From: Trichoplax adhaerens | Lineage: Eukaryota > Animalia > Placozoa | Direction: 5' to 3' | NCBI RefSeq assembly: GCF_000150275.1 | Contig: NW_002060957.1 | Location: 918,445 to 982,444 of the forward strand | Length of the DNA: 64,000 bases | Translations under genes and position numbers: made by a program | In this document: positions 1-33,263 of the stretch, in pieces | Numbering within the stretch: the first letter of the stretch is position 1 | Layout of the letters: every line of letters starts with the position of its first letter | The notes under the pieces: generated by a model | What the model saw: only the letters and a program-made list of their open reading frames with translations | The model's database searches: none | What the model was told of the DNA's origin: nothing

Positions 1-1361
1 CTTGTTCACTGCTATCAAGGACACACCTAATTTGCAGAAAATTCGATGTTGTTTTTGCTAATGCAGTGATAGAAAATTACATTTTATGGGGTACAAATTG
101 TTAAATGGAATCTATATATTTCTAGCCTCATTATGTGCAAAGAATTAATTGAGTTAAATTCGCAGTGCACGCGTTGTTTATTAAAACTTATCAATTTCTT
201 TAAATAAAATACTGGTACTAGCAAGTATGTTAATTAACTATACAATCTGTACTGTGTCTACCTGTGATATATATGGCAAGATGAGTTAGCCTATGTACGC
301 GTAATATTGAGTACTATGGCATTGCATTCAGAAATGACGTCAACTAGATGCTATAGGGAATGATTTACATATTATTAGAGTTCATACGGTTAGCGCAACT
401 TTCTTTACATAATATTTAAGCCTAATATCACATACGTTATTTAGCGTAAAACTGAAGTAAAAAGGTAGTAAATGCATTCAGTCAGCAATAAACTACATTA
501 TACCTCTTCATATATTGTTTTCAATTTTACTTCTAATAAGAAGCTGACGATTAGAGTGATCCCATGGTCTTTACATGTCTTGCGATAGAAATCAATTTTC
601 GTAACTGGCATGAATACTTTGTTGTACAAATATATAGAATTGAAGCTATAACGCGGGTTATACAAAGATCGGTTTGTAACTACATGTTACTATAAACCAT
701 TTGATTAGAGCATCATATACTGTACTCTTACAGCTTGGATGCTCGATGACTTATTTCGATCGCTCAAGCTGAAGTGCTTCTAGACATCTTGATATACCGA
801 AGCACTAACATAAATATGTCATCAACTAGCAGTACGCTTACCAGACTGTACGTACTTACGTGTAGATATCCTTATAGCTTTCCCTCTTACCACACTATCA
901 GCACAATGTAAAACATGCTTTTCTATTTTGCACTTTCATCATACTACCGTTTAAAGCAATCCATAAATCAACTGCCACTTTTATGTAACTCATTACTGTA
1001 CCGCAGTCTACAGTAAACTAATTTATATAAAATTACAACAACTACTGCTGCTAGGTTTTAGATATATAATACTTGTAACTTCCCTACCTTCTGTCAACCC
1101 AACTTAAAATACGCTGCTTTATTTTGTAACTGTATCATGCTATCACTTAAATTATTCCTTCAATTCTATCTAAATTAATCTACCGATATCAGTCTAGTTT
1201 TAACGACCTCGCTATTAGCAATCCAAGTACCGCGTTTCTAGCCAGCGTAACACGGGTGTAACCTATCTATTTTCCATGTATAATTACTTCTTACCATCGG
1301 CAGGCAGAGAATGGCGGCTCATGCTTGAATTTTTTCTTAAATCAAAAGCAGGCCTCTTTAC

Positions 1362-1850
1362 ACCCTGATCTACCTACAAACTACATTAATATAAATATGC
1401 CTTTGATAGATAATGTGTCCACTAAATTAAAAATTGGCGTAGTTTCTGACTCAATGTAGCTAACCAATGTTTGTCTATGGCATCTTGATCTCCATACAAA
1501 CTACACTAATATAAACATGCCGCCAACGAACAATTATAATGCACTCGCAAGACAACAGATTTGCCTGATGACTAAGTCAATGTAGGTAACCGATGCTTGA
1601 ACTGCATACAATATTATGCAACCTATGCAGATAATACAAATACTGCATGAGCAATAAATCTACCTACTCCCTGATCTACATAGAAATTACCCCAGTATAA
1701 ACATGCCATCAACGAATAATTAATGCGCCTGCTAGATTGCCAAATCGCCTAATCATAACTCAATGTCGCTAACTGATACTTGAATTGTATACCATACTAT
1801 GGCAACTGGGCAGACTATACAAATGCAGTATGGGTAAGAAGAAAATCCGC
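1362..1850. repeat. Three degenerate direct repeats (~120-185 bp) upstream of DNAH7
   Basis: Shared blocks tgatct(a/c)catacaaactac, tataaacatgcc and tcaatgtagctaac recur starting near 1362, 1484 and 1669. Confidence 0.75.
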
Positions 1851-1878
1851 ATACTCATGTTACTGTTGCTATGACATT

Positions 1879-1893
1879 GTTGCCCCTAGCAAC
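1879..1893 (+). promoter_or_regulatory. RFX X-box
   Basis: GTTGCC-CCT-AGCAAC matches GTNRCC-N(0-3)-RGYAAC about 300 bp upstream of the inferred DNAH7 ATG. Partial sites GTTGCTATGAC (1865) and CTATGGCAAC (1797) lie nearby. Confidence 0.75.
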
Positions 1894-2189
1894 AAGATTA
1901 TCATCTAATCAAACGCATTATTGCAATTTATTAGGATATACAGTAGAAATCTTAAGTAATTTTTATAATACAGTCAAAAACTTGATCAAGGCAGAAGCCA
2001 ATTTGATGCTATAACTGTTGAAGAAATCAACTAATTGACTTGATCAAACTGAAAGAGAAAATTTCCCCCCAGTCTATGGATATTGGTTATTGCAAACTCC
2101 AATTGAAGCTGAATTGAGCTGTGGGAATTTAGTCCATCGCAATTGAATTAATATCAGTGAAAATCTGATATTAATCGACCATTATAATC

Positions 2190-5100
2190 ATGGAGAATCA
2201 GGTAATTAGGATAATTATATAGAGAGTTACATTTCGTTGATGAAGATAGAGATAGTAATAAAGGATAGGTGTAATAATAGGCATACTATCGGCATGGATA
2301 TCGTATTCGATTTTGTTTTTCACCAAGTAGGATAGATGAAATAGTATACTATTAAGATCGTGCTATCACTTGTTATTTCCTATCATAATTATCGAAACAG
2401 CAGCATTCATTGCTTACTATTATGGGGCGTACTAGAAGAAGTTGTTGTCAACGATAAATTAACAGTCCCCATACAATAACTTTGGATAGTTAAATAGCTA
2501 TTTTAACCTCGATGAGATAGCTAAAATTACATTTCTACGCATACTTATAAAATATACAACATAACCATAAACTTTATCAAAATTAATCCAACATGGCAGA
2601 TGGTAAAGTTGCACTTGAACGCTAAATCGAATAACTGAACAGTAAAAGAGTAGATTACAATTCTTGGATTATCTTAATTGTCCTTGACTATACTGATGTT
2701 ATGGCATTTTTTCTTATGTCACTATAGTTATTTCCGCAAGCGAAAACACATGGCAAAAAGACTGGCTCACCTCTTACTTATTTGCCATCACTTTCAGAAG
2801 TAAATAACATACTCGGATAGAATATCTATGCACTTGATCTAGTCCAATAATGATTCTGTCCTCTATAGCATTGATTCATCGTAGAAAGTAGATTACCGTC
2901 GTATTGACATCTAACTATCAATGCGAATTAGTGCTATCGGATATGAAACAATCACAAGTGTATTAGTATGTTACTATAGAGATCGATGACGAATAGTGAA
3001 AAAATAAATCTAGTTTTTTATGTTAGAGAAGAAGGATTTACTGTCCTTTCTATTCTCCTATATGGAGACTTTTTTTCTATGAAGATCAATGGACGGCTAC
3101 GGTATCGGTTAGAATGAAAAGAATTCATATGAGATTAAATCATATTTTATTACATTTTACATCATGTAGAAACGAGTTAAACCATCGTGGAAGAATTTTT
3201 CGCCATCGTTCACATTGGATGTAGATGGCACTCAGAATGGTCCTGAACCTGAATTAAATGGAAGATTAAAAGCGAAATACACAACAGGTAAAAAGAAAAT
3301 TGGGGGCACTTTTTAGAACAGCGGAAAGGCATTTCGTGGCAATGCTATCTATATATTATTTGGATAAACGAAGACGATAATATAACTATTTTGATCATCT
3401 CTTTCCATTTTACTTTAGGCAATCCTGTCATTAAAAAAGATCGCCATAGTAAATCAAAGTCATGGGATCCAACTAAAAGTAAGAATGAGGGTAAACAGGC
3501 AGCAGCAAATGGCCACACTACCGCTCCATCCAGGAAGTTTATTCAACCTAAAAGAGATCGTGAAAATTTTCGTAGCGCCATCGTAAATATTATCATGTAA
3601 GATGATCATTTAAAAATGAAGAGAAAAAGCTCTAGGAATAGCACCGACAACAGATGGATAACGCCATTTTTTTTCTATTTCCTTAGGCGAGAAGAATCCC
3701 CTCCTTCAACACCTTCACTTCTCGATGGCGAATTACCGCCCATTACTCGCTCCGGTTCGCCTAATTCAGCAGAGAAAGATATTCTGGTACGTAGTTCTCC
3801 ATCACTTCATGCAATTGAATTCCATATCAATTAAATTTTTATCGTCTTACCAATTCCTCCACTTTTTTTTCTTCTTTCTTTCCTCCACTTCCATCCTGAA
3901 ATTAATTCATTATCACCATTTTACAGCGCTATTATTACTATATACACAATGGTATTGACACAGAGCATGTAGCACCTATGGAAGATCAATGGCTTAACAA
4001 TGTTCTGTCATTAATTTCTGAACGTCTGAAGGTTAATAGCAACAAATTTGACGATTCATAATATTCATAGAACAACGTAGTTAAACATGCTTGGAAAAGA
4101 GTGATTATTCTTTTGATTTCACCGGTTATCCTTGAAAGAAATATACTCATTTTCTGTTCCTTCTTAGCTTGATCGTGATAAAAGTATCGAATTACTATCG
4201 GACGAAATGAGAGAAGATTACTTATTAAGCGTTAAAAAAGCAATCGGTTAGTAGTTTGAGCAAGTTACTACGAGTAAAAGCAGTCTATAGGGATAGATCT
4301 AAACCTGTCGATGGTATTTCTTTTTCAGTTGATTTTGTTCTCAAAGATCCAAGAGAGAATACGGATGCAGAAAAAGAAGAAGTACTGCCCTATAAAGCAG
4401 AGTAAGTTCCTAATGATCCAGTTTGTATAGTTTTTTTTTCTCTCTCTCTCTTTCTCTTGAATTAGAAGTTATCCATGCTTACTCAGTCAATATTTTGTAC
4501 CAAAAAATAGGTTAGAAAAAGTACCAAAACCATGGGCAAAATCTTATATCGTCGGTAGGACCGTGATCCTACAAGAGCTCCATATTACAAATCCTACCAT
4601 GGCAGCAGTCTTGGACTTGTGGTATAAAAACTACGGGTTAGTGATCGAGAATAATTCGCCCAATCTATTCCACAGTTTCCTATGCTATTGCTTTGATGCT
4701 TACAAAACGAAAATCTCAAAATGGCAACTTTTTATCGCCTAGTATTGATCATTCTTTACCTTATCCATCATATAACAACATCTCTTATGGACTGTGCCTT
4801 GCATAGCGATACTTTTAAAACTTAACTTGAGAAAATCATTTATGATTCCGATCGCATTGATGATAATATTTTAAATATCCATTTATTCCTGATGATTAGA
4901 GATTTACGCCTGATCTCAGTTGAAGAAATACGCCAGCTGCCCGATTCAATGGAATTACCTTTCTTTCAAAATTTAATTATGCAACACATAGAAAGTACCA
5001 AGGATACTCTAACGAAGAGGTAAAGGAAAATTTTACTTATAGATCTTGAAATCGATAGCCTTCAAAGGATGGCGGTTTTATCATTTGTATGCGTACCAGT

Positions 5101-8100
5101 GTAATTTCTTTTTCAATCCAATGTCTAATTAACATCTTTATTCTGACCCTTTCAAGATGGTTTCCAGCTATACAAAATATATTTTATCAAGGCAATAAGC
5201 GAAAGCAGGTGCCATCCAACCAAAGCCCTCGACGATTAGATTCTTTCTTCAATGCCGCCGCTACACTCATGGGCAATCACTTACAAAATTTAGCTTTAAA
5301 TTCGCTATCGGATTATATGGAAATGTTTTCGCCGAATGAAATGTCTGTTCTTGCTTATCCTAATCCTGGTTTTGTAATCCGATTGATTGTGGAAGGAACA
5401 CGTTTAAAATTTGAGCCTGATTTCGAAGACTTCGAGGCTATTTTACTCAATGTTTGTGATATCATCATTAAAGCCGTCTCAGTCATTCCAAGAGTAGAGA
5501 CAAAATTATATCAAGACATATCAGGGATTGGTAAAACTCATCTAAAACCAATCATCTTGGAGGAGATTTTAGTGGCTACCAAAGATAGAATCAAAGAAAT
5601 TATTTGGCATGAATCACTTGGGCCTAAACAATTTGCTAAAAACTTTAATAAATACGAGTTTTTAACCTTGAAACAGGTTCATAACATAATTTTAAAGACA
5701 TAGTTTGAGTTAGAATCGGATCTAAGTAGGCTAAGATTTTCATAAAATAGGTTAGTAAACATTTTGAACGCTTTCTTTAGGCTGATGATGATGTGGAGAA
5801 ATTCTTAAACGAAGACCATAGTTTCAAGGAATACATGAAGGTATTTCAATAACTCATGGATTAGCTCTCTGAATTGCTGAGCTTATCCATTAAATTGAGG
5901 GGTATTTTGGGATATTTTAGGAAGTAGAGAAATATAGAAATGTCATGGAAGATATTATTTATAAGATGCGGAGAGTAATTCGCCTAGGAATGTTTGAATT
6001 ACATTGTGATGAAGCAATTCGTTCCCTCTCGAAGAGAGCAGAAAGTCTTAGCACAAGACTACTACGAACAATGTCCGACAAGCATCAGGAATTGAATAAG
6101 AAGTAAGTCAGGAAATGCATGGACTGAAATTAGTTTATAACGAGTTGAGCCCAAAAGAATAACGATAATGTTTTTGAAATTATAGACTCTGTGCTGAGTA
6201 CGAAAAAATAGCTGAAAAAGCGCTCATGTCGCCAACAAACACTCAACACTTGATGGAATTAAAGGTTAGAATATGCAATCCAGTAACCCTTATGGAATCA
6301 ATTATTTGAAAAGTATCCATTTCCTTCTTGGTGTAACTAAGTTGTCAATATCTTTTCGTCTTCGTAAACGATTGTTTCTCGTAGGAATATATTGAAAAAG
6401 TGGAACTGGATACTGTATTTGATCTAGAAGACGATTTAGTCGATGCTAAAGACAGGCTGTCCTATTTGGTAAGTCATAAAAAGTATTACTGGATTTATTT
6501 CTCTATAGATTAATGGCTAAATTTGATGGTTAATGAATCCATCTTCTCATTATCGTAGGCCGACTATGTCTCCTTCTCACCAGCAGAGATGAGACAAAAT
6601 AGCAACACCTTCCAATGGCATGATCGAATGTCGCAAATCTTCAGCGAGCATAAATCTATCATTAAATCTAGCAGAGTCCAATTTGAAAATAGCTTAAAAG
6701 TAAGTTTAGGTGCTTGCTATTACTGTATCTACTTTAAAGCTAATGTATCCTTTCTTCACTCTTTCTTTAAATAGCTGAGACGAGAAAGATTTATCGAAGA
6801 ATTGGAAGGATATAATAAACAATTGGAAGAATTTAAGGTAATGATGACAAAAATTGTTGATTCTCGTTTGGGATTATTCCTTTTAATTGGATATTATTTT
6901 CAATTAATCTGTTGAAATACGCTTTCATTAAATAACGTTGTCTCCATACTTTTACCTAAATTCATCGCTCTCTTTAGTCATTTGGCGATATCCAAGATAT
7001 CCATCGATACCTGAAGAAAGCACAAGCACTAAATACTCGACTAGAAGCAGCTGCTGATAAAATTGATGCCTTCAATAAAGAAGAGGAAGCATTCGAGTGG
7101 CAATGTACTCAATATCCACTACGAAATCAAATTCTCAATACGCTCAATCCCTACTTACGATTATATGAGCAAACAGTTAACTTCCAAAATAAATATAAAT
7201 CATGGTGGGATGGTCCTATTCATGAAGTGGATCCTGATAATGTCGAACAAGAGGTTGGTGCTTTCTATCGTGGACTGTATAAATTGGAGAAAACATTTGC
7301 AGATTTACCAGCTCCCAAGAAAATCGCTACCAAAATTAGAAGCAAAGTGGAAGACTTTAAACAACATTTACCACTTATTTCTGTCTTGTGCAATCCTGGA
7401 CTTCGTGATCGCCATTGGGATGATATGGCTGCTCATACTGGATATCCCATTAAACCGGATAACGAAGCCACTCTTTCAAAGATGGTTAGCTTAAATTTAG
7501 ATTCCTATCTGCCGCAATTTGAAGGAATCAGCGAAGCAGCCAGTAAAGAATATGCTCTAGAAAAAGCTCTAGCCAAGATGAACGTTGAATGGGAAGATGT
7601 TTTATTTAAAATTATCCCCTATCGTGAAACTGGTACTTATATCCTCACATCGATCGATGATATCCAAACTTTATTAGACGACCACATCGTTAAAACCCAA
7701 ACTATGCGTGGATCACCGTTTATCAAGCCTTTCGAGGAATCCATTCATAAGTGGGAAAGTACATTGATCCTTCTACAAGATGTTCTCGATGAATGGTTGA
7801 AAGTCCAAGCTACTTGGCTCTATCTTGAGCCCATCTTTAGCTCGCCAGATATTATGGCGCAAATGCCGGAAGAAGGAAGACGATTTAGTACCGTGGATAA
7901 ACATTGGCGAGATATTATGAAAGCGGTCTTTGCTGATCCACATGTCTTAGCCGTAGCTGAAATTGATAAACTAGCAGAAAGATTGAAAAAATCCAACGAA
8001 TTACTAGAATTAATCCAGAAAGGACTGAATGAATATCTTGAAAAGAAACGATTATATTTTCCCCGTTTTTTCTTCTTATCCAATGATGAATTATTGGAAA

Positions 8101-11100
8101 TTTTATCGGAAACGAAAGATCCTACACGTGTTCAACCTCATCTTAAGAAATGTTTTGAAGGAATTGCTCGTTTAACTTTTACTGAAACTCTGGAAATTAC
8201 CCATATGCAAAGCAGTGAAAAAGAAATTGTACCGCTAACAGATGCTATCTCCACTTCTAAAGCGCGAGGACAAGTGGAGAAATGGCTGTTAGAATTAGAA
8301 GGCATCATGATTAAAAGTATTCGCAAAGTTATCGCCGATGCCCGCGATGCCTACGTTAATTCAGCTAGGAATCAATGGGTAACCGATTGGGTTGGACAAT
8401 CTGTCTTGTGTGTTTCACAATTATATTGGACCAGCCAAGTCCATGAAGCCATTCGAGAAGGCCATGATAAAATGAAAGACTATCTACAAAAATGTAATAA
8501 TCAACTGAGTGATATTGTCGAATTAGTGCGTGGTAAATTATCCGCTCAAAATCGCGTTACATTAGGCGCTTTGGTAGTGCTAGAAGTCCATTCTCGCGAT
8601 GTCTTGAGTAAATTAATTGATGATAAAGTAAGCAGTGAAACTGATTTTCAATGGCTTAGCCAATTGCGCTATTATTGGGAAAGCGAAAGTTTAATTACCA
8701 GGATGATTAATTCCACTTTAGCCTATGGCTATGAATATTTGGGCAATACAGGCCGCTTAGTAATAACGCCCTTGACGGATCGATGCTATCGAACCTTATT
8801 TGGAGCTCTTCATTTGCATTTAGGTGGTGCACCAGAAGGTCCTGCAGGCACAGGTAAAACTGAAACAGTCAAGGATCTTGCCAAAGCGGTTGCTAAGCAA
8901 TGTGTGGTATTTAACTGTTCAGATGGCTTAGATTACATTGCTTTAGGTAAATTCTTCAAAGGTTTAGCATCTTGTGGTGCTTGGTCTTGCTTTGATGAAT
9001 TTAACCGTATCGATTTAGAAGTATTATCCGTTGTCGCTCAGCAAATTTTAACTATCCAACGAGGCATAAATCAAGGCCTGGATACTTTATTATTTGAAGG
9101 CACTGAAATTAAATTAGATCCTACTTGTTCTGTATTCATTACTATGAATCCTGGCTATGCTGGTCGATCTGAATTACCGGATAACTTAAAAGCGTTATTC
9201 CGTACAGTAGCCATGATGGTACCCGATTATGCTATGATTGCTGAAATAGTTTTATATTCCTTTGGTTTCGTCACAGCTCGACCTCTTTCGGTCAAGATTG
9301 TAGCAACCTATCGCTTATGTTCCGAACAATTATCATCCCAACATCATTATGATTACGGTATGCGAGCTGTTAAATCGGTTTTAACTGCTGCTGGCAACTT
9401 AAAACTTAAATATCCCGACGAAAATGAAGATATTCTCATGCTACGTTCCATCCAAGATGTCAACTTGCCCAAATTTCTATCGCATGATCTGCCATTATTC
9501 GAGGGCATTGTATCTGATTTATTTCCTGGTGTTAAACTACCTAAGCCAGACTATGCTCTTTTATCCGCTGCAATCGAAGATAATTGTAAACGAATGAATT
9601 TACAATTAACCGATACCTATTTAACCAAGATTTTGCAATTATACGAAATGATTACCGTTCGCCATGGGTTGATGATTGTTGGTGAACCTTTTGGAGGCAA
9701 GACCTCAGCTTATCGGGTATTAGCAGCTGCACTCTCCGATATTGCTGATCGTGGATCACTCAACGAAAATAAAGTACAAATCACCGTCATTAATCCTAAA
9801 TCCATTACCATGGGCCAACTATATGGATGCTTCGATCCCGTATCCCATGAATGGTCAGATGGTGTTTTAGCAGTTAGCTATCGCGCATTTGCTACTTCAA
9901 CCACTCAAGATCGTAAATGGTTAGTCTTCGATGGTCCTGTCGATGCTATTTGGATTGAAAATATGAATACTGTATTAGATGATAATAAAAAATTATGCTT
10001 AATGTCTGGTGAAATTATTCAGCTAGCACCAACAACCAACTTGATATTTGAGCCAATGGATTTGGAAGTAGCCTCTCCAGCTACTGTAAGTCGCTGTGGC
10101 ATGATTTATATGGAGCCACAAATGCTCGGTTGGCGACCTCTAATGTTATCATGGCTGAATAATTTACCTAAGACCATGAATAGTGATCATAAATTGTTAA
10201 TGACAAGTTTATTTGATCGCTTAGTACCACCTGCATTGCAATTTATCCGTAAAGGCGGATTTAAAGAAATTTCAGCAACTTCCGATACTAATTTAGTCAA
10301 CTCATTAATGAACTTGATGGATAGTTTAATGGATGAATTCCGCGATGAAGTTAAATTTACAACGCTGTCTGAATACGAAATCAACTCATGGATCGAGTGT
10401 ATCTTTTTATTTTCTTTTGTATGGTCCATTGGAGCAACTATTACCGAAGATGGCCGAGTTGTATTTGATACTTTACTACGTGATCTTATGCAAGAAGGTT
10501 TATACGATGACAAAGGCAAAAAATATGGTATTAGCATCACCGTTGAGCCACCTATTCGACCATTTATATGCCCTTTCCCAGATGAAGGACTTGTTTATGA
10601 TTATCGATTTATTAAAGAAGGGCCTGGACGATGGGAAGCTTGGACCGATACAATCAATCAATCAGCTGCTATTCCAAAAGATATTACATTTAATCAAATT
10701 ATCGTGCCCACCATTGATACTGTCCGCTATAGTTATTTAATGGAAACATTATTAACCCATGATAAGCCGACGTTGGTTGTTGGCCCGACAGGTACTGGAA
10801 AATCGACCTATATCCAAGATTTCTTATTAAATCGCCTACCAAAGGATACTTATCGACCTGTATTTATCAACTTTTCCGGACAAACTACAGCTAATCAAAC
10901 TCAAGATATTATCATGTCTAAGTTGGATAAAAGACGTAAAGGTATCTATGGTCCACCATTAGGGAGGAGGACCATCGTCTTTGTCGACGATGTTAATATG
11001 CCGGCTCGCGAAATCTATGGAGCGCAACCACCAGTTGAATTATTACGCCAATTCCTCGATCATAAAATGTGGTATGATCGCAAAGATAATACACAGCAAA

Positions 11101-14100
11101 AATTGATTGATATCCAATTAATTTGTGCTATGGGACCACCCGGAGGTGGCCGTAATCCAGTTACTCCGCGATTTTTACGCCATTTCAATCAAATCACCAT
11201 CAACGAATTCCAAGATGAAACTATGGATCTGATCTTTACCACTATCATCAATTGGCATCTTCAAACGCAAAACTTTAGCGAAGAAGTAACCGGATTTGGT
11301 AGTAAAATCATCTCAGCTACCAAAGCAATCTATCATAGTGCTATGAAAAATCTACTACCTACGCCTGCTAAATCGCATTACTTATTTAATTTGAGAGATT
11401 TCGCAAGAGTGATTCAAGGTGTTGCTTTATCGTCACCTGAAGTTATCACAACAACGGATGAGCTGAAAAGGTTATGGACTCATGAAGTCTATCGTGTCTA
11501 TTATGATCGATTAATTGATGAAAAGGATAAAAATTGGCTATTTGAAACGATTAAGGGTGTCCATAAAGATCAATTAGGCTCTGATTTCTACGACTTATTC
11601 CACCAATACGATTTAAATCAAGATGGTAACATTTATGAAGACGATCTCAATAGTTTAATCTATTGCGATTTTATGGATCCCAAATCTGATTTTAAGCATT
11701 ATATAGAAGTCGATAATTTAGATAAATTACGATCAGTTGTCGAAACTTATCTGGATGAATACAACAATATGAGCAAAAAACCAATGAATCTGGTACTCTT
11801 TAGATTTGCAATTGAGCATGTATCTAGAATTGCAAGAGTTCTCAAGCAACCTCGAGGGCATGCTTTATTAGTTGGAGTAGGAGGTAGTGGACGCCAAAGT
11901 TTAACACGTCTTGCAGCACATATCTGCGATTATGAATTATTCCAGGTCGAAATGACCAAAAGCTATTCAACTCTAGAATGGAAAGAAGATCTTAAAAGGG
12001 TTCTACGAAAAGCTGCTGAAGGGGATGTACCATGTGTATTCCTCTTTGCTGATACACAAATAAAGCAAGAATCGTTCTTAGAAGATGTCAGCAACATCTT
12101 AAATACAGGTGAAGTTCCTAACTTATTCCCAGCCGATGAAAAACAAGAAATTTGCGAAAAAATGAGACAAATTGATAGAATGAGAGAGAAATCGAGACAA
12201 ACTGATGGTTCTCCGTTAGCTCTGTTTAGCCTCTTTGTAGAACGCGTCAGAAATAGCTTACATATCGTGCTAGCTATGAGCCCAATTGGTGAAGCATTCC
12301 GTAATTATCTTAGGAAATTTCCATCTCTTGTTAATTGCTGTACTATCGATTGGTTTCATTCTTGGCCAGAAGATGCTTTACATATTGTTGCTCAACGCTT
12401 CTTGGAAGACACTGATCTCAGCGAAAATATTCTTAAAGGTTGCGTTAACATGTGTAAATTATTCCACAAATCAACTAGTGACTTATCAGCGGCATATCTA
12501 GCAGAATTAGGTCGTTATAACTATGTTACACCAACATCTTACCTTGAGCTGATCAGCACTTTTAAGGCATTGTTGAATAAGAAACGAAGTGAAGTCATGA
12601 AAGCCAAACGCCGCTACGAAATAGGTCTTGAGCAACTTGTTTCCGCAGCAGATCAAGTATCAGCCATGCAATTAGAATTGGAAAATCTACAACCTCAACT
12701 TAAGCAAGCATCCAAAGAGGTTGACGATATCATGGTCGTTATTGAGGCAGAGTCCATTGAGGTTTCTAAAACTGAGAAAATTGTTAAAGGAGATGAAGCA
12801 ATAGCGAACGAGCAAGCTAAAGCAGCTAAGGCTATCAAAGATGAATGTGATGCAGATTTAGCTGAAGCTATGCCAGTACTAGAAGCTGCATTATCTGCAC
12901 TAAACACATTAACACAACAAGATATCACCTTCATTAAAACCATGTTAAATCCTCCACAGGGAATCAAGTTAGTCATGGAGGCAATTTGTATTTTAAAAGG
13001 AGTCAAACCAGCTCTATCTGTCGATAATGCCACCGGCAAACGCACTGAAGATTATTGGGCTCCAGCTAAGCGATACCTACTAGGAGATTCAAATCTACTA
13101 CGTTCATTACAAAATTATGACAAGGATAATATTCCATCCAATGTTATAAGAAGAATTAATGAACGATATATCGCCAATCCAGACTTTGATCCTGAAAAAA
13201 TTAAAGCCGCATCTATTGCTGCAGAAGGTCTATGCAAGTGGGTTATTGCAATTAGCCGCTACGATAAAGTGGCACGATTGGTAGCTCCTAAGAAAGCAGC
13301 ATTAGCTGAAGCTGAAAAAGAGCTAGCGAAAGCTATGGATGCATTAGAAATAAAGAGAGCTAATCTTAGAGAAGTCCAAGATCGATTAGCTAGTCTGAGA
13401 GAAAGATTTGAAGCAAACACTCGCAAAAAGGAAGATTTAGAAAATCAAGTTGAACAATGCTCGAAAAAATTAGATAGAGCGAGGCAATTATTAGGTGGTC
13501 TTGGAGGTGAAAAAGATCGCTGGAGTGAAACAGCGCTGAAACTTGGTGAAACTTACTCTAACTTAACTGGTGATACTTTAATATCATCCGGTGTTGTATC
13601 TTACTTAGGAGGATTTACATCTGCTTATCGCCAAAATCAAATCAATAAATGGGTTGATTTATGTAAACAAGAAAATATTCCTTGTTCACCAGAGTATTCT
13701 TTAACAACAACATTAGGTGATAGTGTTAAAATTCGTCGATGGAATATTGCAGGATTGCCTACCGATTCATTTTCCGTTGAAAATGCTATCATTATCACCA
13801 ATTCTCGCCGATGGCCTTTAATGATCGATCCACAAGGTCAAGCTAATAAATGGGTTAAAAATATGGAAAAAATCAACAATTTACACACCATTAAATTATC
13901 CGATAATGATTATATCAGAACGTTGGAGAATTGTATACAGTTTGGAACACCGGTGCTTCTCGAAAATGTTGGCGAGGAACTTGATCCCATTTTAGAACCA
14001 TTATTGTTAAAGCAAACTTTCAAGCAGGGTGGTAGTATTTGCATTCGATTAGGCGATAGCACTATCGAATATGCCAAGGATTTCAGATTCTACGTCACAA

Positions 14101-16928
14101 CTAAATTGCGAAACCCTCATTTCTTGCCGGAGACAGCAGTAAAAGTTACTTTACTCAATTTTATGATCACTCCAGAAGGATTAGAAGATCAATTGCTTGG
14201 TATCGTAGTAGCTAAAGAAAAACCAGAATTAGAAGAAGAAAGAAATGGATTAATCGTTCAAAGTGCTGAAAATAGAAAACAGCTAAGAGAAATCGAAGAT
14301 AAAATCCTAGAGTTGTTATCAGGCTCAGAAGGTAATATTCTAGAAGATGAAACAGCTATTACTGTTTTATCCTCTTCCAAGGCTCTATCTAATGAGATAT
14401 CTGAAAAGCAAGCCACTGCTGACGAAACTGAACGAGAAATCAACATAGCACGACTTAAATATAAACCGATAGCTGAGCATTCGTCCATTTTATTCTTTAC
14501 TATCGCCGATCTTGCCAATATCGATCCTATGTATCAATATTCTCTAACCTGGTTTGTTAATCTTTATGTTCACGCTATCGAAAATTCTGCAGCTTCCGAA
14601 GACATTACTACCCGATTAAAAAATCTAACAGACCATTTTACTTATTCACTCTATTGCAATGTATGCCGATCACTCTTTGAAAAAGATAAGTTATTATTTT
14701 CTTTCCTACTGGGTGTCAACTTATTGCGAAGTAGGAAAGAAATTGAAGAAATAGAATGGCGATTTTTATTAACTGGCGGTATCGGTCTTGACAATCCTAA
14801 TGAAAATCCAACAACGTGGTTGCCTGCAAAAGCATGGGATGAAATCTGTCGCTTGGATGAATTACCTAATTTCAAAGGGATACGCACTCGATTCTCCATT
14901 TATATTGAAAGATGGAAAGAGATCTATGATAGCTTTGAACCACAAAATGAAGAATTACCTGGTGATTACTCTAGCAAACTACATCGATTCCAGAAATTGT
15001 TAATACTTCGCTGCTTACGACCAGACAAAGTGATACCTGCTGTACTCGACTTTGTAGCGGATAAACTAGGCAAAATGTATGTGGAACCGCCACCATTCGA
15101 CTTGGGGAAAGCATTTGCTGATTCACATTGTTGTACACCATTAATATTTATATTGTCGCCGGGTGCAGATCCAACAGTTGCCTTGCTTAAATTTGCTGAT
15201 GATCAAGGATTCGGTGGAAATCGATTTACTACGCTTTCTCTAGGGCAGGGTCAAGGCCCAATTGCTATGAAAATGATTGATAGAGCGGTAAAAGAAGGAT
15301 CCTGGGTTATGTTACAAAATTGTCATTTAGCAGCTTCCTGGATGCCAACTCTTGAAAGGATTTGCGATGAAATGAATCCAGATACAACCCATCCAGATTA
15401 TCGCTTATGGCTAACGAGTTATCCATCCAAAGATTTCCCTGTAGCTGTATTGCAAAACGGTGTCAAGATGACTAATGAACCACCAAAAGGCTTGAAATTA
15501 AACGTTTTAAGATCATATAATACCGATCCTGTCAATGATCCAAGCTACTTTGAAAGTGTCAAGCAAGGTAAATCGTGGAAAAAATTGCTCTACGGTCTTT
15601 GCTTTTTCCATGGACTTGTACAAGAACGACGTAAATTCGGAGCTTTAGGATGGAATATACCTTATGAATTTAATGAAACAGATCTCCGCATTAGTGTCCA
15701 ACAACTCCATATGTTCTTAAACGATTATGAAACAGTGCCATTCGACGCTATTCGATACTTGACAGGAGAATGCAATTATGGTGGTCGTGTAACGGATGAT
15801 CGAGATCGACGTTTAATAAAATGCATCTTGAATAAATTCTACAATCAAGATATCATTATAAATGATAAATACACATTTTCTCAAAGTGGATCTTATTATG
15901 CACCAGCTGAAGGAAAATATGAGAGTTACTTGGAATATACTAAATCTTTACCAAGTGCTGCCCGTCCAGAGGTATTTGGATTACATGCTAACGCTGACAT
16001 TACCAAAGATCAAAAGGAAACTTATTCATTATTTGACAGTATACTTTTAACTCAAGCAAAAACGACAACTAGTCAAGGTAAATCAAGCGATGAAATTGTA
16101 TCCGAAGTGGCTACTGATATTTTAGCCAAATTGCCATCTGTTTACGATACTGAAGCGGCACTACGCAAATTTCCGACAACTTATACACAAAGTATGAATA
16201 CTGTTTTAGTTCAGGAAATGACTCGATTTAATCATTTAATTCAAACTGTTCATGCAAGCTTAGTTAATGTACAGAAAGCTATCAAGGGTTTAGTAGTAAT
16301 GTCTGCTGATTTAGAGGAAGTAGTAAACAGCATTCTTAAAGGTAAAATTCCAAGTTTATGGATGAAAAAGTCATATCCCTCACTAAAACCATTGGGAAGT
16401 TATGTTAACGATTTACTACAACGATTAAAATTCTTCCAGGAATGGTATGAAATGGGAGAGCCCACTATTTATTGGCTATCTGGATTTTATTTTACTCAAG
16501 CATTCTTGACAGGAGCTCAACAAAATTTTGCTAGAAAATATACTATTCCAATTGATTTATTAGGATTTGATTATGAAGTCTTAGAGGATAAAGACTATGA
16601 AAACCCACCTTCAGATGGCGTCTATGTTCGTGGAGTATTCCTCGAAGGTAGTCGGTGGGATCGGCAGAAAAAGGCTTTAGCAGAATCGCATCCCAAAATA
16701 CTCTATGATGGTATGCCTGTCATATGGCTTAAACCTTGCAAAAAAGAAGATATTCCAGAGCGTAAGGCTTATGCTGCTCCGGTATATAAAACGAGCGAAC
16801 GACGAGGAACATTATCTACAACTGGACATTCAACTAATTATGTTATTAGTATGTCATTGCCAACGGAAGAGCCACCTGAGCATTGGATTATGAGAGGTGT
16901 TGCATTGCTCTGCCAGCTAGATAATTAA
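2190..16928 (+). CDS. DNAH7: Axonemal inner-arm dynein heavy chain 7 (18 coding exons; terminal exon 6978-16928)
   Basis: The long ORF carries the dynein AAA1 P-loop [20 protein letters not shown]2 [11 protein letters not shown]3 [11 protein letters not shown]4 GVGGSGRQS, stalk/MTBD and the C-terminal [15 protein letters not shown]. Upstream GT-AG exons (2190-2201 MENQ, 2728-2799, 3170-3287, 3419-3596 [14 protein letters not shown], 3687-3786 AEKDIL, 3927-4031 [23 protein letters not shown], 5157-5676 etc.) splice in frame and match the DNAH7-specific N-terminal tail as recalled from human DNAH7. The first two exons are least certain. Confidence 0.95.
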
Positions 16929-18823
16929 GTTTCAATACGTGATCCTTAACTAATTCAACAAAATGAATATAACCATTGGACTTTATATTCGTTTCAGCTT
17001 AAAATGTCAATTGACCATTTTTAAATATATGTGACATTATTAGTTAGAATAAATTAGATCATCATAACTTAATTTACACTATGTATGGTTTATACTTTTA
17101 GTTCATTTTTGACTTTAATAGAAGTATTTCTTGTACTTGAGGGTCTGCATCTGCTCGATTCGCAGCCCTATAACAATTACTATATCATGGTGCAATCACT
17201 GTTCTCTACGTATTAGCTTATATAGTGTAACATGAAGAAATCTTTGCTGGATACAGAAATGAAATATGGCTATCTTGTATATATTACATGTAATAATATC
17301 AGTCTCACCAAATTATTTTAAAATGGCAACATTTTTAGTCTACTCGAATTGTGAAAACTTTTATGATGTGCTTTATTTTATATTCAAAATTGAAAATTTC
17401 TCTACCCTCTTCATATCATTCATCGCCGTCATTTGACAGTATAAATCAAATGGCTATTAAAATTATGGTGAATATAATAACAAGAAAAATTTCTAACTTG
17501 ATCTTCAATAGTTTATGCTAATTAGACTGCCCTCGAACAAGGCGATAGTAATTTTATACTAGCACATGTAATAATTAAGTCGTAGACTATTTGTATGACT
17601 ATTTCTACTTCATCAATAAAGCTCTTATTAATTCCTAGCCAAGTTGTTAGTAAATTTCTACTTCTCTAGCAATGCTATAATTGCCAGACAGAAATGGATA
17701 ATCTTTACTATGCCTGTTATAATTATAATATACTGATTACAACTGGGAATCTAGATTGAATAATAATATTAATAAGCCATCTAATATCGTTTCAATCAAG
17801 AATATCGAAAATTTAACATTGGCTTTGCAGTATTAATGCATGCATCTACAAAAGGTATTAACAAACTAGAAAGTACCATCTAATTTTTATACGCGTGTTA
17901 TTTAATATTACAGTAAATGAGTCGATACAAACAGAAACTGCATAGTTTATTCTTAGATAATACCAAGAATTGAAGGTTTTATTAATTATGTTAAATCATT
18001 TACACGAATATCCAGCATCGTCTAAATTGCTTATGAAATTATATCAATTCTGCAATGCAATTATATAACTAAAATTTGGCTTAATACCGTTATTGAATAA
18101 ATGTTACATTGTCTAATAAATCATTCACTAAATACTTGAGAAGTTAAAACCTAAATAAGATGCAGTTACAGGATTCAGTCTGAAAACGTTAATCTGGACA
18201 GGCAGATAAATCCACGATAGTTAATACCCGTACGCGTATGTTTCTGCAGCACTAGATAGTTATAGAACATACATATTGCAAAAGGAATAGTATTATACTT
18301 TAATCTTAATTTTAATTATATAACCATACATGTAGATCTAGAATTATGCTATATCAGAGATATATCTTAGTTCAATCTACATTACTACTTTTAGCCATTC
18401 AAGATTTAATTCAATGCTTATTTAGGTATGTCCAATGTCATCGCAAATGGCTACAGGAAAATCTTCAACAGTGGGTGCAGCACCATTCTAATGGTGATTA
18501 CTATGGTTGGTTCCGTCAGTACAGTACCGTCCGATCCATGAAACCCAGTATATAGTACTGTACATACTACTGTACAGTACAGTACTGTACTGTACTGTAC
18601 TACCATGGCAACAAGACAGACCCTGTGCAAAGAGAGACATGTGTACTGGCGTAGCCCTAGACGTAGGTTCGACTCAGGAGCGAGCCATAACAAGAAAGAT
18701 GCAAAACACTGTTGAATCTTTCTCAAGTCTACTCTAGGCAGCCGAGCGAGAGGGTGGACCATCGAATTATTGTACTGTATGCTGACAGTGGACACAGATA
18801 TAGTAGACTACTGATCAGCCAAG

Positions 18824-21800
18824 ATGCAGAATGTGCAACAACCCAAAAAAAGGAAATTATCCGACGAGATCATTGCGGAAGATGAAGATTATCAACGTGA
18901 TCCTGAGGTAATTTTTAACCATGATAGCACAACCTGTTGAGATGATCATTGCATGAAATTGTGGAAATAGTCCATCAAGCGCATCCAATCGTGGAAAGAC
19001 TACGAAAAGTTAGGCCATCAACACTGCTCGTTTCTGCTATTGACAGTAGAGTACCATATCGGTTTGATGCAACAACATTTAAAATGGATTTATCTGGATA
19101 GTGCTGATGTAGTTGAATTGAATTTTATGCATTGCCTTTTACTCTTCTAGCCTTAAGCACCGTAGTACATGTGTACAGTACAACAGCAGAAGGGTACTGC
19201 TGTAGTCAGCTTCGTTATTCCATGACAGCTCTAGTTATGATGGCATAGATTATTCATGATTTGATTGTGTGCCCTTGTTAATCACGATCATCATTCTTTT
19301 CTCTTGCCTTTTAGCATCCGCGAAACTTAATACCTGAGATTTGCAGGTGCTGTATTGCAAAGTTAATTCATTGTTTGATATTCTGTCAGAAGCGGTGTTC
19401 ATCCTTGGGCTTCTTTGTATAATAACATTGCCCTAACGATTCATGGATAGTCTTTAAAATTGTGTTTTATCAGCAATGGACCATCAGTTATAATTCTTAT
19501 TGCACTTTGACATTCTTGAAGTACATGAGTCCCGTAGGCAATGTAGAATCCTGTAGTTTTCGTGCTATGGGACTTAACGTAGATTGTATTTTTTTACTTT
19601 GTGCATAACAACATTGGATAATATCGCCCTTCAACGCCGTACTGTACATCTACTGCAAATGAATATCCGATTAATAGCTACAATAATAATAATATGAGTG
19701 GACAAACATTCCGATCAGTATTGTCTCGAATATTTTGGTCCAATTAACGCGTCTTCAGTACAGCACTGCAGTATGAAAGAAATCAAAAGATAAAACTACG
19801 TTATTAATAGAAATGCGCTCAAGAGAAACAAATTAGCAATAAGATTATGAATTTCCACTAACTTTTAAGCGTATCGAAGCAGGCATACACACTATGCATT
19901 CTTATGACAGTAACTTGCGTTACTACTAGGTGCCTTATACTCTGTTTGTAAATGCCTGGTTTCAATCATAATGTTGTCGCCATTACAAATAAGCTTGTCT
20001 TTACATAGTGGGTAAAATTAGAAAACCTTTGCTGCAATTGTAAAGAAAATAATACATGCGTAATAGCTGTAGTATAGTCAAAGTTCCTAGATTACATTGG
20101 AGCATGCAGCAGGTAGAGTACTTCATCCAAAGCTTCACCAGATTATACCATTATTGAGTATCACCCTTTATTACTCTGAGAAATAATTGAGACATATCAT
20201 AAAGGAAATAATTATTTGCTAGGTATACTGTATACTGTAATAATCGAACTACACAATAACATCTCGCTTGCTGAATTTGTTCTACAGTAGCAGCTTTACA
20301 GCTCTAACGATTGGCCATTTGCCTTCAATTGTTTCTTACAGGTTATTATACAGTCAGGAAGCAATGACGGGCTCTGGTGGTGCCATAAGCATGAGAAGAA
20401 AGTAAGTAGAAACTTCGTGGTTTATAGCAATTAGTGTCTATATATTACTTGATTCGTAGACGTCAGTGAAGTCTGCTATGAAAGGCATTATTTTGCTTTG
20501 TTGACCCTATCACGACCTGCTTGCATCCATGTACTTTATAGTAAGTTTTGTTTCGTAGCTATATTGGCGTTATGACTTTGACAAACTAGTTAACTGTAAC
20601 TTTGCCCATACCTACATTAATTGACTTGCCAGTTTAAATTATAAAGGTTAGTAAATGCAAATTTATTAATCGAGCATCTAGACAGTGCAATCTTAACGCT
20701 CCTGAAAGCTTTTACACAAAAGTTATGCCACAATCATTGTACTGATAATCTTAACTTTAAACCCCTTAACAATTCGCCATGATTGATCCAACTAACGGTT
20801 GCTGCTCTACTACTGCATAAAGCGATAAAATCTATGTTGCCCCTTCTGGCGTCCAAAAGGAACGTTTGCAGGTACTATTTTAGGCCGTAATGAATACTAT
20901 TGCCAAAGCTATCGTAGCATTGTAACTGTTAAAATTGACTAGTACATCTCTGCGATTATATACTGTATACAAACAAGTTTTAGCATGGAATAGGCCTATG
21001 CCGATTTCATGGTAGGGATCTTGTTTGATGATGCGATGATAGGATTGCTTGTTGCCTAATTTTATTCACCAATTTATCTAGCCCGAGGATATGTTTGTAA
21101 TAAACGACGATGGCGATACACTTAAGCTACCGCTAAATGGGTAAGTACTTCATTATATTTGCCTGAAAGTGGTGTATTAGTAGTTTATTACAATTAGTTT
21201 TTACTTTAATGTCGCTATAAATTATGGCTAGTCATTTTCAGGAGATTTGACAACATGAATGAATCCCATTTCTGAGTAGATTGTGCGGTATTATCCAAAA
21301 CTGTAATTATTTACAACTAAATCAGTTTTTGGGTATTTCAGGAAAATATGCAGAATGAGCCAGTGTACTCCACTCTTTTTGACCATTTATCGACTGCGAG
21401 GTACTGCGGTATTGCTAGAAAAATTAATTGTAAATATGCGGTATATTCCGATGTACTAAGTTTATTATTTTATTATAATACGATATTATAATATTCAATT
21501 GTCAGTGCCTTCTGTATGTATTCATCACTACTCAACTCCTGATTCAATATTTATTAGGATCTGAATGCGTCATACATTCACATTCCAAGAGGGCGGTTTT
21601 GGCAACAATCATTTCGTCAGGAAATGAATTTCGTATTAGTGATCTGCAAATGATTAAGGGTATCTATAAGCGAACCGAAAATAGAAATTATAGGTATGTA
21701 GTATTCATTTATTCTATTGGCTAGTAATTTTTGTGCCTGCTTATTAATTTGATAGGGCAATGCAGTTTATCATTTTAAAGGTATAGGTATTTTTTTTCAG

Positions 21801-22247
21801 ATTTGGTGAAGAAGTTGTAATACCTATCATTGAAAATACTCCTACCGACCCGGAACTACAGGTAGTCATCATGCTAGGATGTAGTTATATAACATATATT
21901 AGAATTTTATTGTAATATAGATCAATTTGTTTCTAATTCTTACGTCAGTATCAATTACTGTATGATATAATTGTCATGAATTGACCCAATTGCTAGGAAA
22001 ATTTAGTCAAAGCAATGGAGAATTATCCAGATACCTGCTGCGTTCTCATACGTAGACATGGACTATACATATGGGGAACTACTTGGCAGCAGGCAAAACT
22101 AATGTAAGAAATGAGCCTTACTTTGTTAATATTGATAATAGTCACCTTATATAACAGATTCTTTGCTAATTAATGTTTCATAGGTATGAATGCTACGAAT
22201 ATTTGTTTGACATAGCAATTCAACTAAAACAGCTTGGGATGAATTAG
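18824..22247 (+). CDS. APIP: Methylthioribulose-1-phosphate dehydratase / APAF1-interacting protein (10 exons)
   Basis: Spliced exons give [12 protein letters not shown]...[11 protein letters not shown]...TGSGGAIS...[20 protein letters not shown]...SQCTPLF...VIHSHS...QMIKGI...IPIIENTP...[12 protein letters not shown]...[11 protein letters not shown]...*. All introns are GT-AG with consistent phase, and the three Zn-ligand His are present. Confidence 0.93.
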
Positions 22248-23307
22248 TGAAAACTGATTACAGAGGTCACTATTGCTATATTTTTGCTTGTCATAGGACT
22301 GTATTATTGTAATTGCTGGAGCTGATGATATACTGCTCCACAGTTATTTAGACGTTGAAGGTTAACAAAGAAAATAACATTTTATTCGGCATATCAGCGA
22401 AAAATACAATATAGTATAAGGAGTTTTTTCACTATGCCTCGGTTTTAAATTCTTCAAAGGAACTGAGAATACTTAACTAAGATATTACAGATAGCCCACT
22501 TTTCTTGTCGACTGATATACTCAAATTGAACATTCTACTCTTACTTCTCATAATCGTTCAACAGTAAATGGATTGGGCATAGCTTATCAAATAAAAGATT
22601 GAAAAAATTGATTATCTTTCTTGTTTGTATGTATATATCAAGATATAATCATGTCTAATCATTATTCAAATATTATTAAAGGCGACTTTTTCTTATGATA
22701 CACATGCATGCATAACACTGATGTACGCAGTATTACAACATGAAAGTTGAAATAACCATGCAGAACATACTAATCAACGTACAAGGGGGTAACGTTGAAA
22801 GATTTCGTAACGACAAAAACATAGTCAATACTGTACGAGGCATGGTAAAACTTTCAACTTACAGTTTTTGATTACACTACACACACACTAATTTGATGCT
22901 AATTCTTTAGTATGATTTACAGATATTCAGTTGAGATAGGTACAAATAGTGTAGTTAGGTAGGCGAGATTTACAGCATAGGGTAAAATTTCGCTTAACAG
23001 CATTCATCGTAATCGGGTGAACTAGTATGAGTTCTTCTAATAATTATAGTGTTGTATGGATGAAAAGTTACAAGAGTTGGGATATCCAAGATTTTACATA
23101 CTGCAGATTCTAAATTTCGTAGATACACTGCATTCAAATACTAAAGTACCTTATAACTATATAGAATTTATTCTCGATATACGTCGTCCACTTGAAATGT
23201 TGAATACAGACAGACGTTCATATTGCTATCTAATAGCATCAGTATTATCATTTAACGTTCAAATGAAACTGTTCATGATGATTGCAATAGAGGCTGGCAA
23301 ATGGCAA

Positions 23308-23910
23308 TCAGTGTAATGATTCCATGACTTTTCGAGCTTCCTTTAATTCCCTAATAAGTTCACGAAGTCCTTCTCGATCGGTCGTGAAAGCAGCAGACTT
23401 GACCTCATCATTGCTATCAGTAGCGGTATAATTTAATTTTAAATGAAATTCTGGTTGATCAACTTGTTGCTGTACACTCGAACTCATAACGTAATCGACG
23501 CGCCAATCGCATGACTTAAACTTGGATAATCGTAAGGAAGTGTCTTGCAATACTTGACGTAATTTTTCCACGTTATCGTGGTATGCCCGACATAATCCTG
23601 TAGCATGTTCTTTCGGCAAACCTAACTGTTGCAATTCATTGCATAATGCATCACTTTCCATATTATATTTAGCAGCATTGCATAAGATAAAATGAGACGT
23701 TGCAATACTCCCTTTAATATCAGATAAATCAAATTTAGCATCGGCTGTCAACTTGTATACTTTATCATAATTTAATTCTCCTTCTAACATGCATTTGATG
23801 ACCTGAGTGATGAGAAGTTTCATCTTAACCGAAGACATCTTGGATAGATTGGTAATTTCGGCTAATACCCAATCAGGACAGTCTAAATCTCCACAAAATT
23901 TAAATTTCAT
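23308..23910 (-). CDS. COMMD4: COMM domain-containing protein 4, single coding exon
   Basis: The N-terminus MKFKFCGDLDCPDWVLAEI is diagnostic of COMMD4. ELQQLGLPKEHA and the COMM-domain WRVDY motif are present in the 200-aa uninterrupted ORF. Confidence 0.96.
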   Translation of the reverse strand: MKFKFCGDLDCPDWVLAEITNLSKMSSVKMKLLITQVIKCMLEGELNYDKVYKLTADAKFDLSDIKGSIATSHFILCNAAKYNMESDALCNELQQLGLPKEHATGLCRAYHDNVEKLRQVLQDTSLRLSKFKSCDWRVDYVMSSSVQQQVDQPEFHLKLNYTATDSNDEVKSAAFTTDREGLRELIRELKEARKVMESLH

Positions 23911-33174: not shown

Positions 33175-33226
33175 CACGTTGTTGGCGAATATTTGACGAG
33201 GGGTGGTCGCAATAAAGCCACGGTAC

Positions 33227-33263
33227 AAAAGGAAGCCTAACGCGTAGTCTTGGTACAAATATA
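33227..33263 (-). promoter_or_regulatory. 5'-TOP/TCT-type initiator (CTTCCTTTT) with a TATA-like element ~27 bp upstream
   Basis: Minus-strand CTTCCTTTT at 33235-33227 lies ~60 nt before the EEF1B2 ATG, with TATATTTG near 33262. Translation-factor mRNAs are classic TOP mRNAs. Confidence 0.6.

What the first reader, a model, noticed from the sequence alone, without database searches (positions are those of the whole stretch)
6978..16928. DNAH7 has 17 introns in its first ~2.1 kb of CDS, then one 9,951-nt intron-free exon
Seen: intron density drops abruptly from about one per 120 coding nt to zero for over 80% of the CDS, while neighbouring genes are intron-dense throughout. Known: vertebrate DNAH7 has dozens of introns across the motor domain, and recombination with a reverse-transcribed, 3'-primed cDNA removes adjacent introns with 3' bias. 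Inference: one or a few cDNA gene-conversion tracts spanning ~10 kb erased the introns, which would be an exceptionally long tract with a sharp 5' boundary near 6978.
Basis: partly seen in the sequence, partly recalled or inferred. Interest (0 to 1): 0.72.

Follow-up and report, generated by a model that had tools for sequence, protein, structure and literature searches.

The report
Placozoan dynein lost dozens of introns
In the simple animal Trichoplax, a ciliary motor-protein gene keeps 17 introns at its front but encodes the last 82% of its protein in one 9,951-base exon where a sponge's gene has 42 introns, so an unbroken run of ancient introns was likely erased by recombination with reverse-transcribed copies of the gene's own mRNA, a known process here on an unusually large scale.

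Summary
Observation confirmed. The gene is Trichoplax adhaerens DNAH7: 17 GT-AG introns in the first 2,112 coding nt, then one 9,951-nt coding exon. RNA contigs show the splicing; DNA contigs from three studies cross the exon without insertions, so it is no artefact. A relative about 16% diverged has the same layout. A demosponge ortholog has 42 introns across this region. 19 of them coincide with vertebrate exon-sized deletion ends (chance 4.8), and none has an indel beside it in Trichoplax. The introns were therefore ancestral and lost precisely, as one 3' block: the signature of mRNA-templated loss. Not established: one ~10-kb tract (a toy model fits many shorter 3'-biased tracts as well or better) and a boundary at 6978 (it may lie up to ~1 kb downstream). 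The case is not unique: a paralogous dynein contig is also intron-free over 5.5 kb, multi-kb DNAH7 open frames recur in other lineages, and neighbouring COMMD4 has a single coding exon. Verdict: a large new example of a known process.

The parts
1965..2201 (+). first exon seen: 5' UTR (from 1965 or earlier) and start codon ATG at 2190, coding MENQ
   Evidence: RNA contig X13 piece 1965-2199; translation
2190..6977 (+). intron-dense 5' part: 17 coding exons (2,112 nt; N-terminal tail, residues 1-704) and 17 GT-AG introns
5157..5676 (+). 520-nt internal exon. It spans a site (446.1) where a DNAH3-like gene has an intron and vertebrate deletion ends fall (about 385, about 445): possible small separate loss
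   Evidence: the same exon as an ORF in a 91%-identical relative, P0199
6838..6977 (+). intron 17, the last intron (140 nt, GTAATG..CTTTAG, phase 0)
6978..16928 (+). 9,951-nt coding part of the last exon: linker, AAA1-AAA6, stalk and C-terminal domain (3,316 aa)
7935..16722 (+). minimal span of loss: from the site of the first (residue 1019) to the last (residue 3948) of 42 demosponge intron positions, about 8.8 kb
   Evidence: positions converted from P0001 residues
16929..17516 (+). 3' UTR, continuous with the coding exon; ATTAAA at 17456; no genomic A-run of 7 or more until 18845
   Evidence: RNA contig to 17516; motif scan

Best explanation
This is the intact, spliced Trichoplax DNAH7 gene (a single-headed inner-arm ciliary dynein) whose last 82% of coding sequence is one exon, likely because an unbroken 3' run of ancestral introns was removed in the placozoan stem lineage by homologous recombination with reverse-transcribed copies of its own spliced mRNA. 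Shown: the gene structure; its sharing with a relative about 16% diverged; 42 intron positions in a demosponge ortholog; their precise absence here. Inferred: that these positions were present in the animal ancestor (19 tested against vertebrate deletion ends; 2308, 2356, 2433 and 2973 supported by cnidarian, protostome or mollusc fragment ends); that the template was cDNA; and that at least one cDNA reached about 9.6 kb from the poly(A) site unless priming was internal. I put about 45% on one long tract or one 5'-truncated genomic retrocopy used as donor, and about 55% on several nested events concentrated on this gene. A 5' block of 17 old introns survived because the copies likely did not reach that far.
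For: Ancestral introns: L001 has 42 GT/GC-AG introns over residues 958-4016 with no stop or frameshift. It groups with Halisarca dujardinii DNAH7 (SH-aLRT 99.9; name). 8 of 9 L059 introns and 2 of 2 L017 introns sit at the same position and phase as in L001. 19 of 52 deletion-end clusters from gene models lie within 3 aa of an L001 intron (null 4.8 +/- 2.0, 0 of 20,000 shuffles). 13 of 16 hand-picked ORF or fragment ends from other lineages also fall on L001 positions (picked after viewing, not a blind test). Precision: 0 of 42 sites have an indel within 3 aa; 6 gap residues in about 3,060. Adjacency and 3' bias: all 17 kept introns lie 5' of all 42 lost ones (1/C(59,17)=3.6e-15). The 5' introns are old: 4 of 9 introns of a DNAH3-like gene in residues 144-700 match exactly, and 7 of 16 match vertebrate deletion ends. 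Gene-specific: neighbour UBE4 keeps 26 evenly spread introns to within 43 codons of its end. The published signatures of the reverse-transcriptase model are the same (PMC3652778, PMC2275149, PMC2395259; passages).
Against: No cDNA intermediate, donor copy, exon remnant or poly(A) scar was found in the window, and read depth is flat across the gene. [quoted passage not shown] In Cryptococcus most losses lie within 1 kb of the poly(A) tail, extremes just over 4 kb, and are usually internal (PMC2395259 passage), so 9.6 kb is far outside that range. Germline expression was not tested. Vertebrate exon boundaries were inferred from deletions in predicted proteins, not read from DNA. No cnidarian or ctenophore DNAH7 genomic locus was obtained.
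Confidence: 0.8

Rival explanations
1. The introns were lost one at a time by DNA-level precise deletion (double-strand-break repair), and selection kept the 5' ones.
For: Precise loss alone does not require RNA. Long highly transcribed genes may break more often (discussed in PMC3652778, passage). Present retroelement activity is low.
Against: Complete sorting of 17 kept versus 42 lost has probability 3.6e-15 under independent loss. Selection would have to protect 17 consecutive short introns and none of 42 others. UBE4 nearby keeps its 3' introns.
Confidence: 0.08
2. A 5'-truncated retrocopy inserted at or near the locus and took over as the last exon, with the old intron-rich 3' half later deleted (insertion rather than conversion).
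For: It gives a sharp boundary and a complete loss in one step and needs no repeated events.
Against: No exon remnants by tblastn or blastn in the rest of the window, and no A-run after the transcript end. Protein collinearity across the junction is perfect, which needs homology-guided joining. The next gene starts about 1.9 kb after the stop.
Confidence: 0.07
3. The intron-free motor region is the ancestral state, and sponges, cnidarians and bilaterians gained their introns independently.
For: Many protist DHC7 loci are intron-poor. DNAH3-like and DNAH7 motor introns are mostly unshared (2 of 30).
Against: 19 positions are shared between a demosponge and vertebrates, far above chance, and more with cnidarians, a mollusc, other sponge classes and a choanoflagellate-like lineage. 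These lineages bracket Placozoa.
Confidence: 0.03
4. The exon is an assembly or annotation artefact, for example a cDNA read merged into the assembly.
For: None found. Long reads were not available.
Against: Single DNA contigs from three studies hold both 5' introns and the uninterrupted exon. A diverged relative shows the same.
Confidence: 0.01

Closest known systems
Reverse-transcriptase (mRNA-mediated) intron loss: concerted loss of adjacent, 3'-biased introns (PMC3652778, PMC2275149, PMC2614967; passages read). 'Extraordinarily large exons' of Niu, Hou and Li 2005 (seen only in reference lists).
   Same: Precise removal, adjacent introns lost together, 3' bias, a very large fused exon that is terminal and flanked by a short intron.
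   Different: Scale: at least 23 and up to 42 or more positions over at least 8.8 kb, in a lineage described as having nearly the same intron-exon structures as vertebrates (PMC3140891 passage). No active donor or retroelement is seen.
Cryptococcus multi-intron losses, e.g. CNK02730 (PMC2395259 passages)
   Same: Runs of consecutive introns lost, in that gene including the 3'-terminal one; explained by poly(A)-primed cDNA.
   Different: [quoted passage not shown] Here the farthest known lost site is about 9.6 kb away. The figure of ten adjacent introns for CNK02730 is recalled, not seen in a call.
Animal DNAH7 (class DHC7 single-headed inner-arm dynein; PMC5100056 passages)
   Same: Full domain set, collinear with human DNAH7 708-4023; about 67-70% identical to other animal DNAH7.
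   Different: Only the gene structure differs; the protein is ordinary.
Retrogenes and processed pseudogenes
   Same: Intron-free coding sequence probably derived from mRNA.
   Different: Only the 3' part is intron-free; 17 old introns remain; it appears to be the single functional copy.

Membership tests
DNAH7 (DHC7 inner-arm dynein) | Best match and phylogenetic placement with DNAH7 rather than DNAH3, DNAH12 or DNAH1 | tested here: met
   PDB best hit human DNAH7 5511 bits vs DNAH12 4467 and DNAH3 4394; inside the animal DNAH7 clade
DNAH7 (DHC7 inner-arm dynein) | Complete linker, AAA1-6, stalk and C-terminal domains in an open frame | tested here: met
   Pfam DHC_N2, AAA_6, AAA_7, AAA_8, MT, AAA_9, Dynein_heavy, AAA_lid_11, Dynein_C; no stop
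DNAH7 (DHC7 inner-arm dynein) | Axonemal inner-arm location and motor activity | not testable with these tools
   inferred from orthology only
mRNA-mediated (RT) intron loss | Lost introns were ancestral | tested here: met
   42 positions in demosponge L001; 19 match vertebrate deletion ends, null 4.8 +/- 2.0
mRNA-mediated (RT) intron loss | Precise removal | tested here: met
   0 of 42 sites with an indel within 3 aa; tested at protein level across a deep divergence
mRNA-mediated (RT) intron loss | Adjacent introns lost together, with 3' bias | tested here: met
   all 42 lost sites lie 3' of all 17 kept
mRNA-mediated (RT) intron loss | Germline expression of the gene | not testable with these tools
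   only whole-animal RNA contigs
mRNA-mediated (RT) intron loss | A reverse-transcriptase source, or processed copies of the gene | tested here: inconclusive
   none in the window; whole genome not held; non-LTR elements 0.04% today
single ~10-kb conversion tract | Pattern better explained by one tract than by many | tested here: inconclusive
   toy model: single 3'-anchored event at best P about 0.04; many shorter tracts 0.02-0.21 with tuned parameters
retrogene / processed pseudogene | Whole coding sequence intron-free | tested here: not met
   17 introns remain
retrogene / processed pseudogene | Genomic poly(A) remnant, or an intron-bearing parent copy elsewhere | tested here: not met
   no A-run of 7 or more near the transcript end; no second near-identical contig and flat depth in DNA runs; the whole genome could not be searched

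The most novel reading that the evidence does not exclude
Single cDNA-templated events of 9-10 kb can erase more than 40 introns at once in an animal. Axonemal dynein genes are repeat targets (several placozoan paralogs, independent tunicate, protostome and choanoflagellate-like cases, and an older 3' reset at the DNAH3/DNAH7 duplication, where 4 of 9 tail introns but 2 of 30 motor introns are shared). Their exon boundaries would then record reverse-transcript length in lineages whose retroelements are now extinct.
Probability: 0.25. Interest if true: 0.65.

Novelty: new member of a known kind. Interest (0 to 1): 0.42.

Why it matters
Trichoplax is used as a reference for slow intron evolution, yet this gene lost a continuous block of ancient introns over at least 8.8 kb while a neighbour kept all 26 of its own. 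It shows that intron loss in an intron-retaining animal can be gene-specific and massive. It sets a lower bound of about 9.6 kb on the cDNA involved if priming was at the poly(A) tail. With several placozoan genomes and about a dozen dynein paralogs (number recalled), it offers a direct test of the open question whether large fused exons arise in one step or by accumulation. The protein itself is ordinary.

Tried and rejected
The whole genome was not held, so other dynein genes of this assembly could not be read directly. Only coordinates of paralog contig pieces bear on them. That contig (X19 record 2) is assigned to the host only by its depth (29 vs 32), and which paralog it is was not determined.

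All 87 loci were screened by tblastn; 27 were put through the spliced aligner. Most were protist genes or probable transcripts and were not used. L017's lineage is unresolved (different placements). The records behind L001, L059 and L017 are not held, so residues 701-957 could not be extended. A homolog search to name L001 directly missed full-length proteins because of the length window; naming came. COMMD4 was not found in G001 with this query, which shows nothing.

X23 and X24 gave only short pieces. 1 of 42 sponge sites (3178, about window 14411) is not bridged in X22; a second (3913) lies in an 80-nt same-length stretch inside one contig. GC3 is slightly lower in the big exon (0.25-0.31 vs 0.34); I draw nothing from it.

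Not found in print: paper searches (open-licence library only) listed nothing on a DNAH7 or Trichoplax dynein giant exon. Passages of PMC5100056 and its supplement file 2 (file 1 not searched, figures not held) do not mention it. A recollection that Trichoplax sodium-channel genes are intron-poor was not confirmed in the passages of PMC6259924 and is dropped. Passages of PMC6067683 and PMC3488318 had nothing relevant. No structure or complex prediction was run; none bears on the question.
Full report
Identity and structure. The longest open frame of the window is 6978-16925 (3,316 codons, stop at 16926-16928). It carries the dynein linker, six AAA modules, stalk and C-terminal domain, and matches human DNAH7 residues 708-4023 better than DNAH12 or DNAH3. 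The spliced gene equals T. adhaerens TRIADDRAFT_60424 at 4020 of 4020 residues; the H2 protein P0001 differs at 5 of 3,316 residues in the exon. Residue numbers below are those of P0001. There are 17 GT-AG introns in the first 2,112 coding nt and none in the remaining 9,951. My spliced aligner, given coral or gorilla DNAH7, recovered 16 introns (the first, after 4 codons, is outside the alignment; one donor was shifted with the coral query) and placed none in the large exon.

Not an artefact. Of 24 runs listed I laid 8. RNA run X13 shows 15 listed GT-AG joints (2 more not displayed) and two unskipped contigs over the exon, reaching 17516. DNA contigs of X1, X4 and X15, from three studies, each carry 5' introns and cross most or all of the exon without insertion. 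Run X22, probably DNA, is about 16% diverged in the exon and is likely another placozoan. One of its contigs keeps intron-sized spacers between 5' exons, and five pieces cover 9,703 of the 9,951 nt at exactly equal length, starting at 6973. The loss therefore predates that split.

The missing introns are ancestral. A scan of metagenome contigs gave L001, a DNAH7 ortholog 71% identical over residues 958-4016 with 42 canonical introns, longest exon about 590 nt. It groups with L059 and Halisarca dujardinii DNAH7 (SH-aLRT 99.9), so it is a demosponge gene by inference. L059 shares 8 of its 9 introns with L001 in position and phase, and L017 2 of 2. For bilaterians I had no DNA. I aligned 266 stored proteins of 1,000 aa or more, kept 262, and took the ends of exon-sized deletions in 56 of them as likely exon boundaries. 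19 of 52 end clusters fall within 3 residues of an L001 intron, against 4.8 +/- 2.0 by chance (0 of 20,000); all 19 come from vertebrate models. ORF and fragment ends from hydrozoan-cluster, octocoral, argonaut, protostome, Sycon-cluster, homoscleromorph-cluster and choanoflagellate-like proteins fall on further L001 positions (13 of 16 ends examined, chosen after viewing). So at least 23 positions are shared by sponge and cnidarian or bilaterian genes, which bracket Placozoa. The kept 5' introns are old too: a DNAH3-like gene on a eukaryotic contig in G001 shares 156.0, 323.2, 517.0 and 577.2.

How it most likely happened. None of the 42 sites has an indel within 3 residues, and every lost site lies 3' of every kept one (3.6e-15 under independent loss). 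Precise, adjacent, 3'-biased loss is what the reverse-transcriptase model predicts (passages of PMC3652778, PMC2275149 and PMC2395259). A large terminal exon after a short intron is also the case least harmed by exon-size limits (PMC2614967 passage). The step from pattern to cDNA is inference: no donor copy, remnant or poly(A) scar is in the window, and non-LTR retrotransposons are now nearly absent from Trichoplax (PMC6057997 passage). If priming was at the poly(A) tail, at least one cDNA reached about 9.6 kb, against a median of 672 bp and extremes just over 4 kb in Cryptococcus.

One tract or many. A toy simulation gave the observed pattern with probability up to about 0.04 for one 3'-anchored event and 0.02-0.21 for tens to hundreds of shorter 3'-biased tracts with tuned parameters. 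The sharp boundary therefore does not prove a single event. Many events would have to be gene-specific, because UBE4, 17 kb away, keeps 26 introns up to its 3' end. The boundary itself lies somewhere between 6978 and about 7935. The 5' part may hold a small separate loss inside the 520-nt exon.

How unusual. A 15,466-nt contig in run X19, at host-like depth, aligns at 9091, 9787 and 14437 with offsets 4863, 4860 and 4848. This paralogous dynein is thus intron-free over 5.47 kb where L001 has 24 introns and the DNAH3-like gene 15. L004, a tunicate-like contig that looks genomic because it carries a second gene and about 900 nt upstream of it, has DNAH7 residues 1012-4015 unbroken; it may instead be fused transcripts. 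Single ORFs of 5.6-6.7 kb occur in protostome, tunicate-like and choanoflagellate-like DNAH7 relatives, two of them on 22-51 kb contigs. COMMD4 next door is a single coding exon. Two unchecked notes from this scan describe another placozoan dynein with an 8.5-kb exon and a Trichoplax mucin-like gene with a 5.4-kb 3' exon; I treat them as leads only. Ten searches of the open library found no description of this exon; subscription papers and figure content were not searchable.

Verdict. The feature is real, and the direction (loss) is well supported. mRNA-templated loss is the likely mechanism (0.8); the number of events is open. It is a large new example of a known process, in a lineage known for keeping introns. 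Interest 0.42.

Noticed in passing
window 23311-23910 (-): COMMD4 is one coding exon (199 aa, matches human COMMD4 1-198). Human COMMD4 is multi-exon (recalled), so this may be a second, whole-gene intron loss 6 kb from DNAH7.
   Followed up: partly
run X19 record 2 laid on window 9091-14561: A paralogous dynein heavy chain contig is collinear over 5.47 kb with only 15 nt net difference, so it is also intron-free there. A second paralog piece in X15 is collinear over 9141-9869.
   Followed up: partly
L084 / L100 (G001:C21) against window 2190-6977 and L001: A DNAH3-like gene shares 4 of 9 tail introns with Trichoplax DNAH7 but only 2 of 30 motor-region introns with sponge DNAH7 (Fisher p=0.018, post hoc, different references). 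This hints at an older 3' intron purge and regain around the paralog duplication.
   Followed up: partly
L004:3-9029 and L004:9338-10225 (-): Tunicate-like DNAH7 unbroken for 9 kb, tail-to-tail with an intronless BTB/C2H2 zinc-finger gene; probably genomic, so a possible convergent giant exon.
   Followed up: partly
window 34445-41789 (+): UBE4-type U-box gene, 1,029 aa, 26 introns, 8.4 per kb, evenly spread.
   Followed up: yes
window 52364-54868 (+): BED zinc finger, DUF659 and hAT dimerisation domains in two long ORFs: a hAT-type transposase or a domesticated derivative.
   Followed up: no
window 18822-22250 (+), 25350-28000 (+), 31800-33420 (-): Multi-exon genes that look like APIP/MtnB, PMS1 (weak HATPase_c and DNA_mis_repair hits) and EF1-beta; the names are by eye and recall except for the Pfam hits.
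   Followed up: no
window 50468-51154 (-): A 229-codon open frame made of tandem repeats of about 54 residues, with no convincing Pfam family.
   Followed up: no
G001 (L084, L100-L102): A bacterial genome record of 20.3 Mb contains large eukaryotic contigs with intron-rich DNAH3-like and DNAH1-like genes: host contamination of the record.
   Followed up: partly
window 59154-59273: The only assembly gap in the window (120 N), far from the finding.
   Followed up: no
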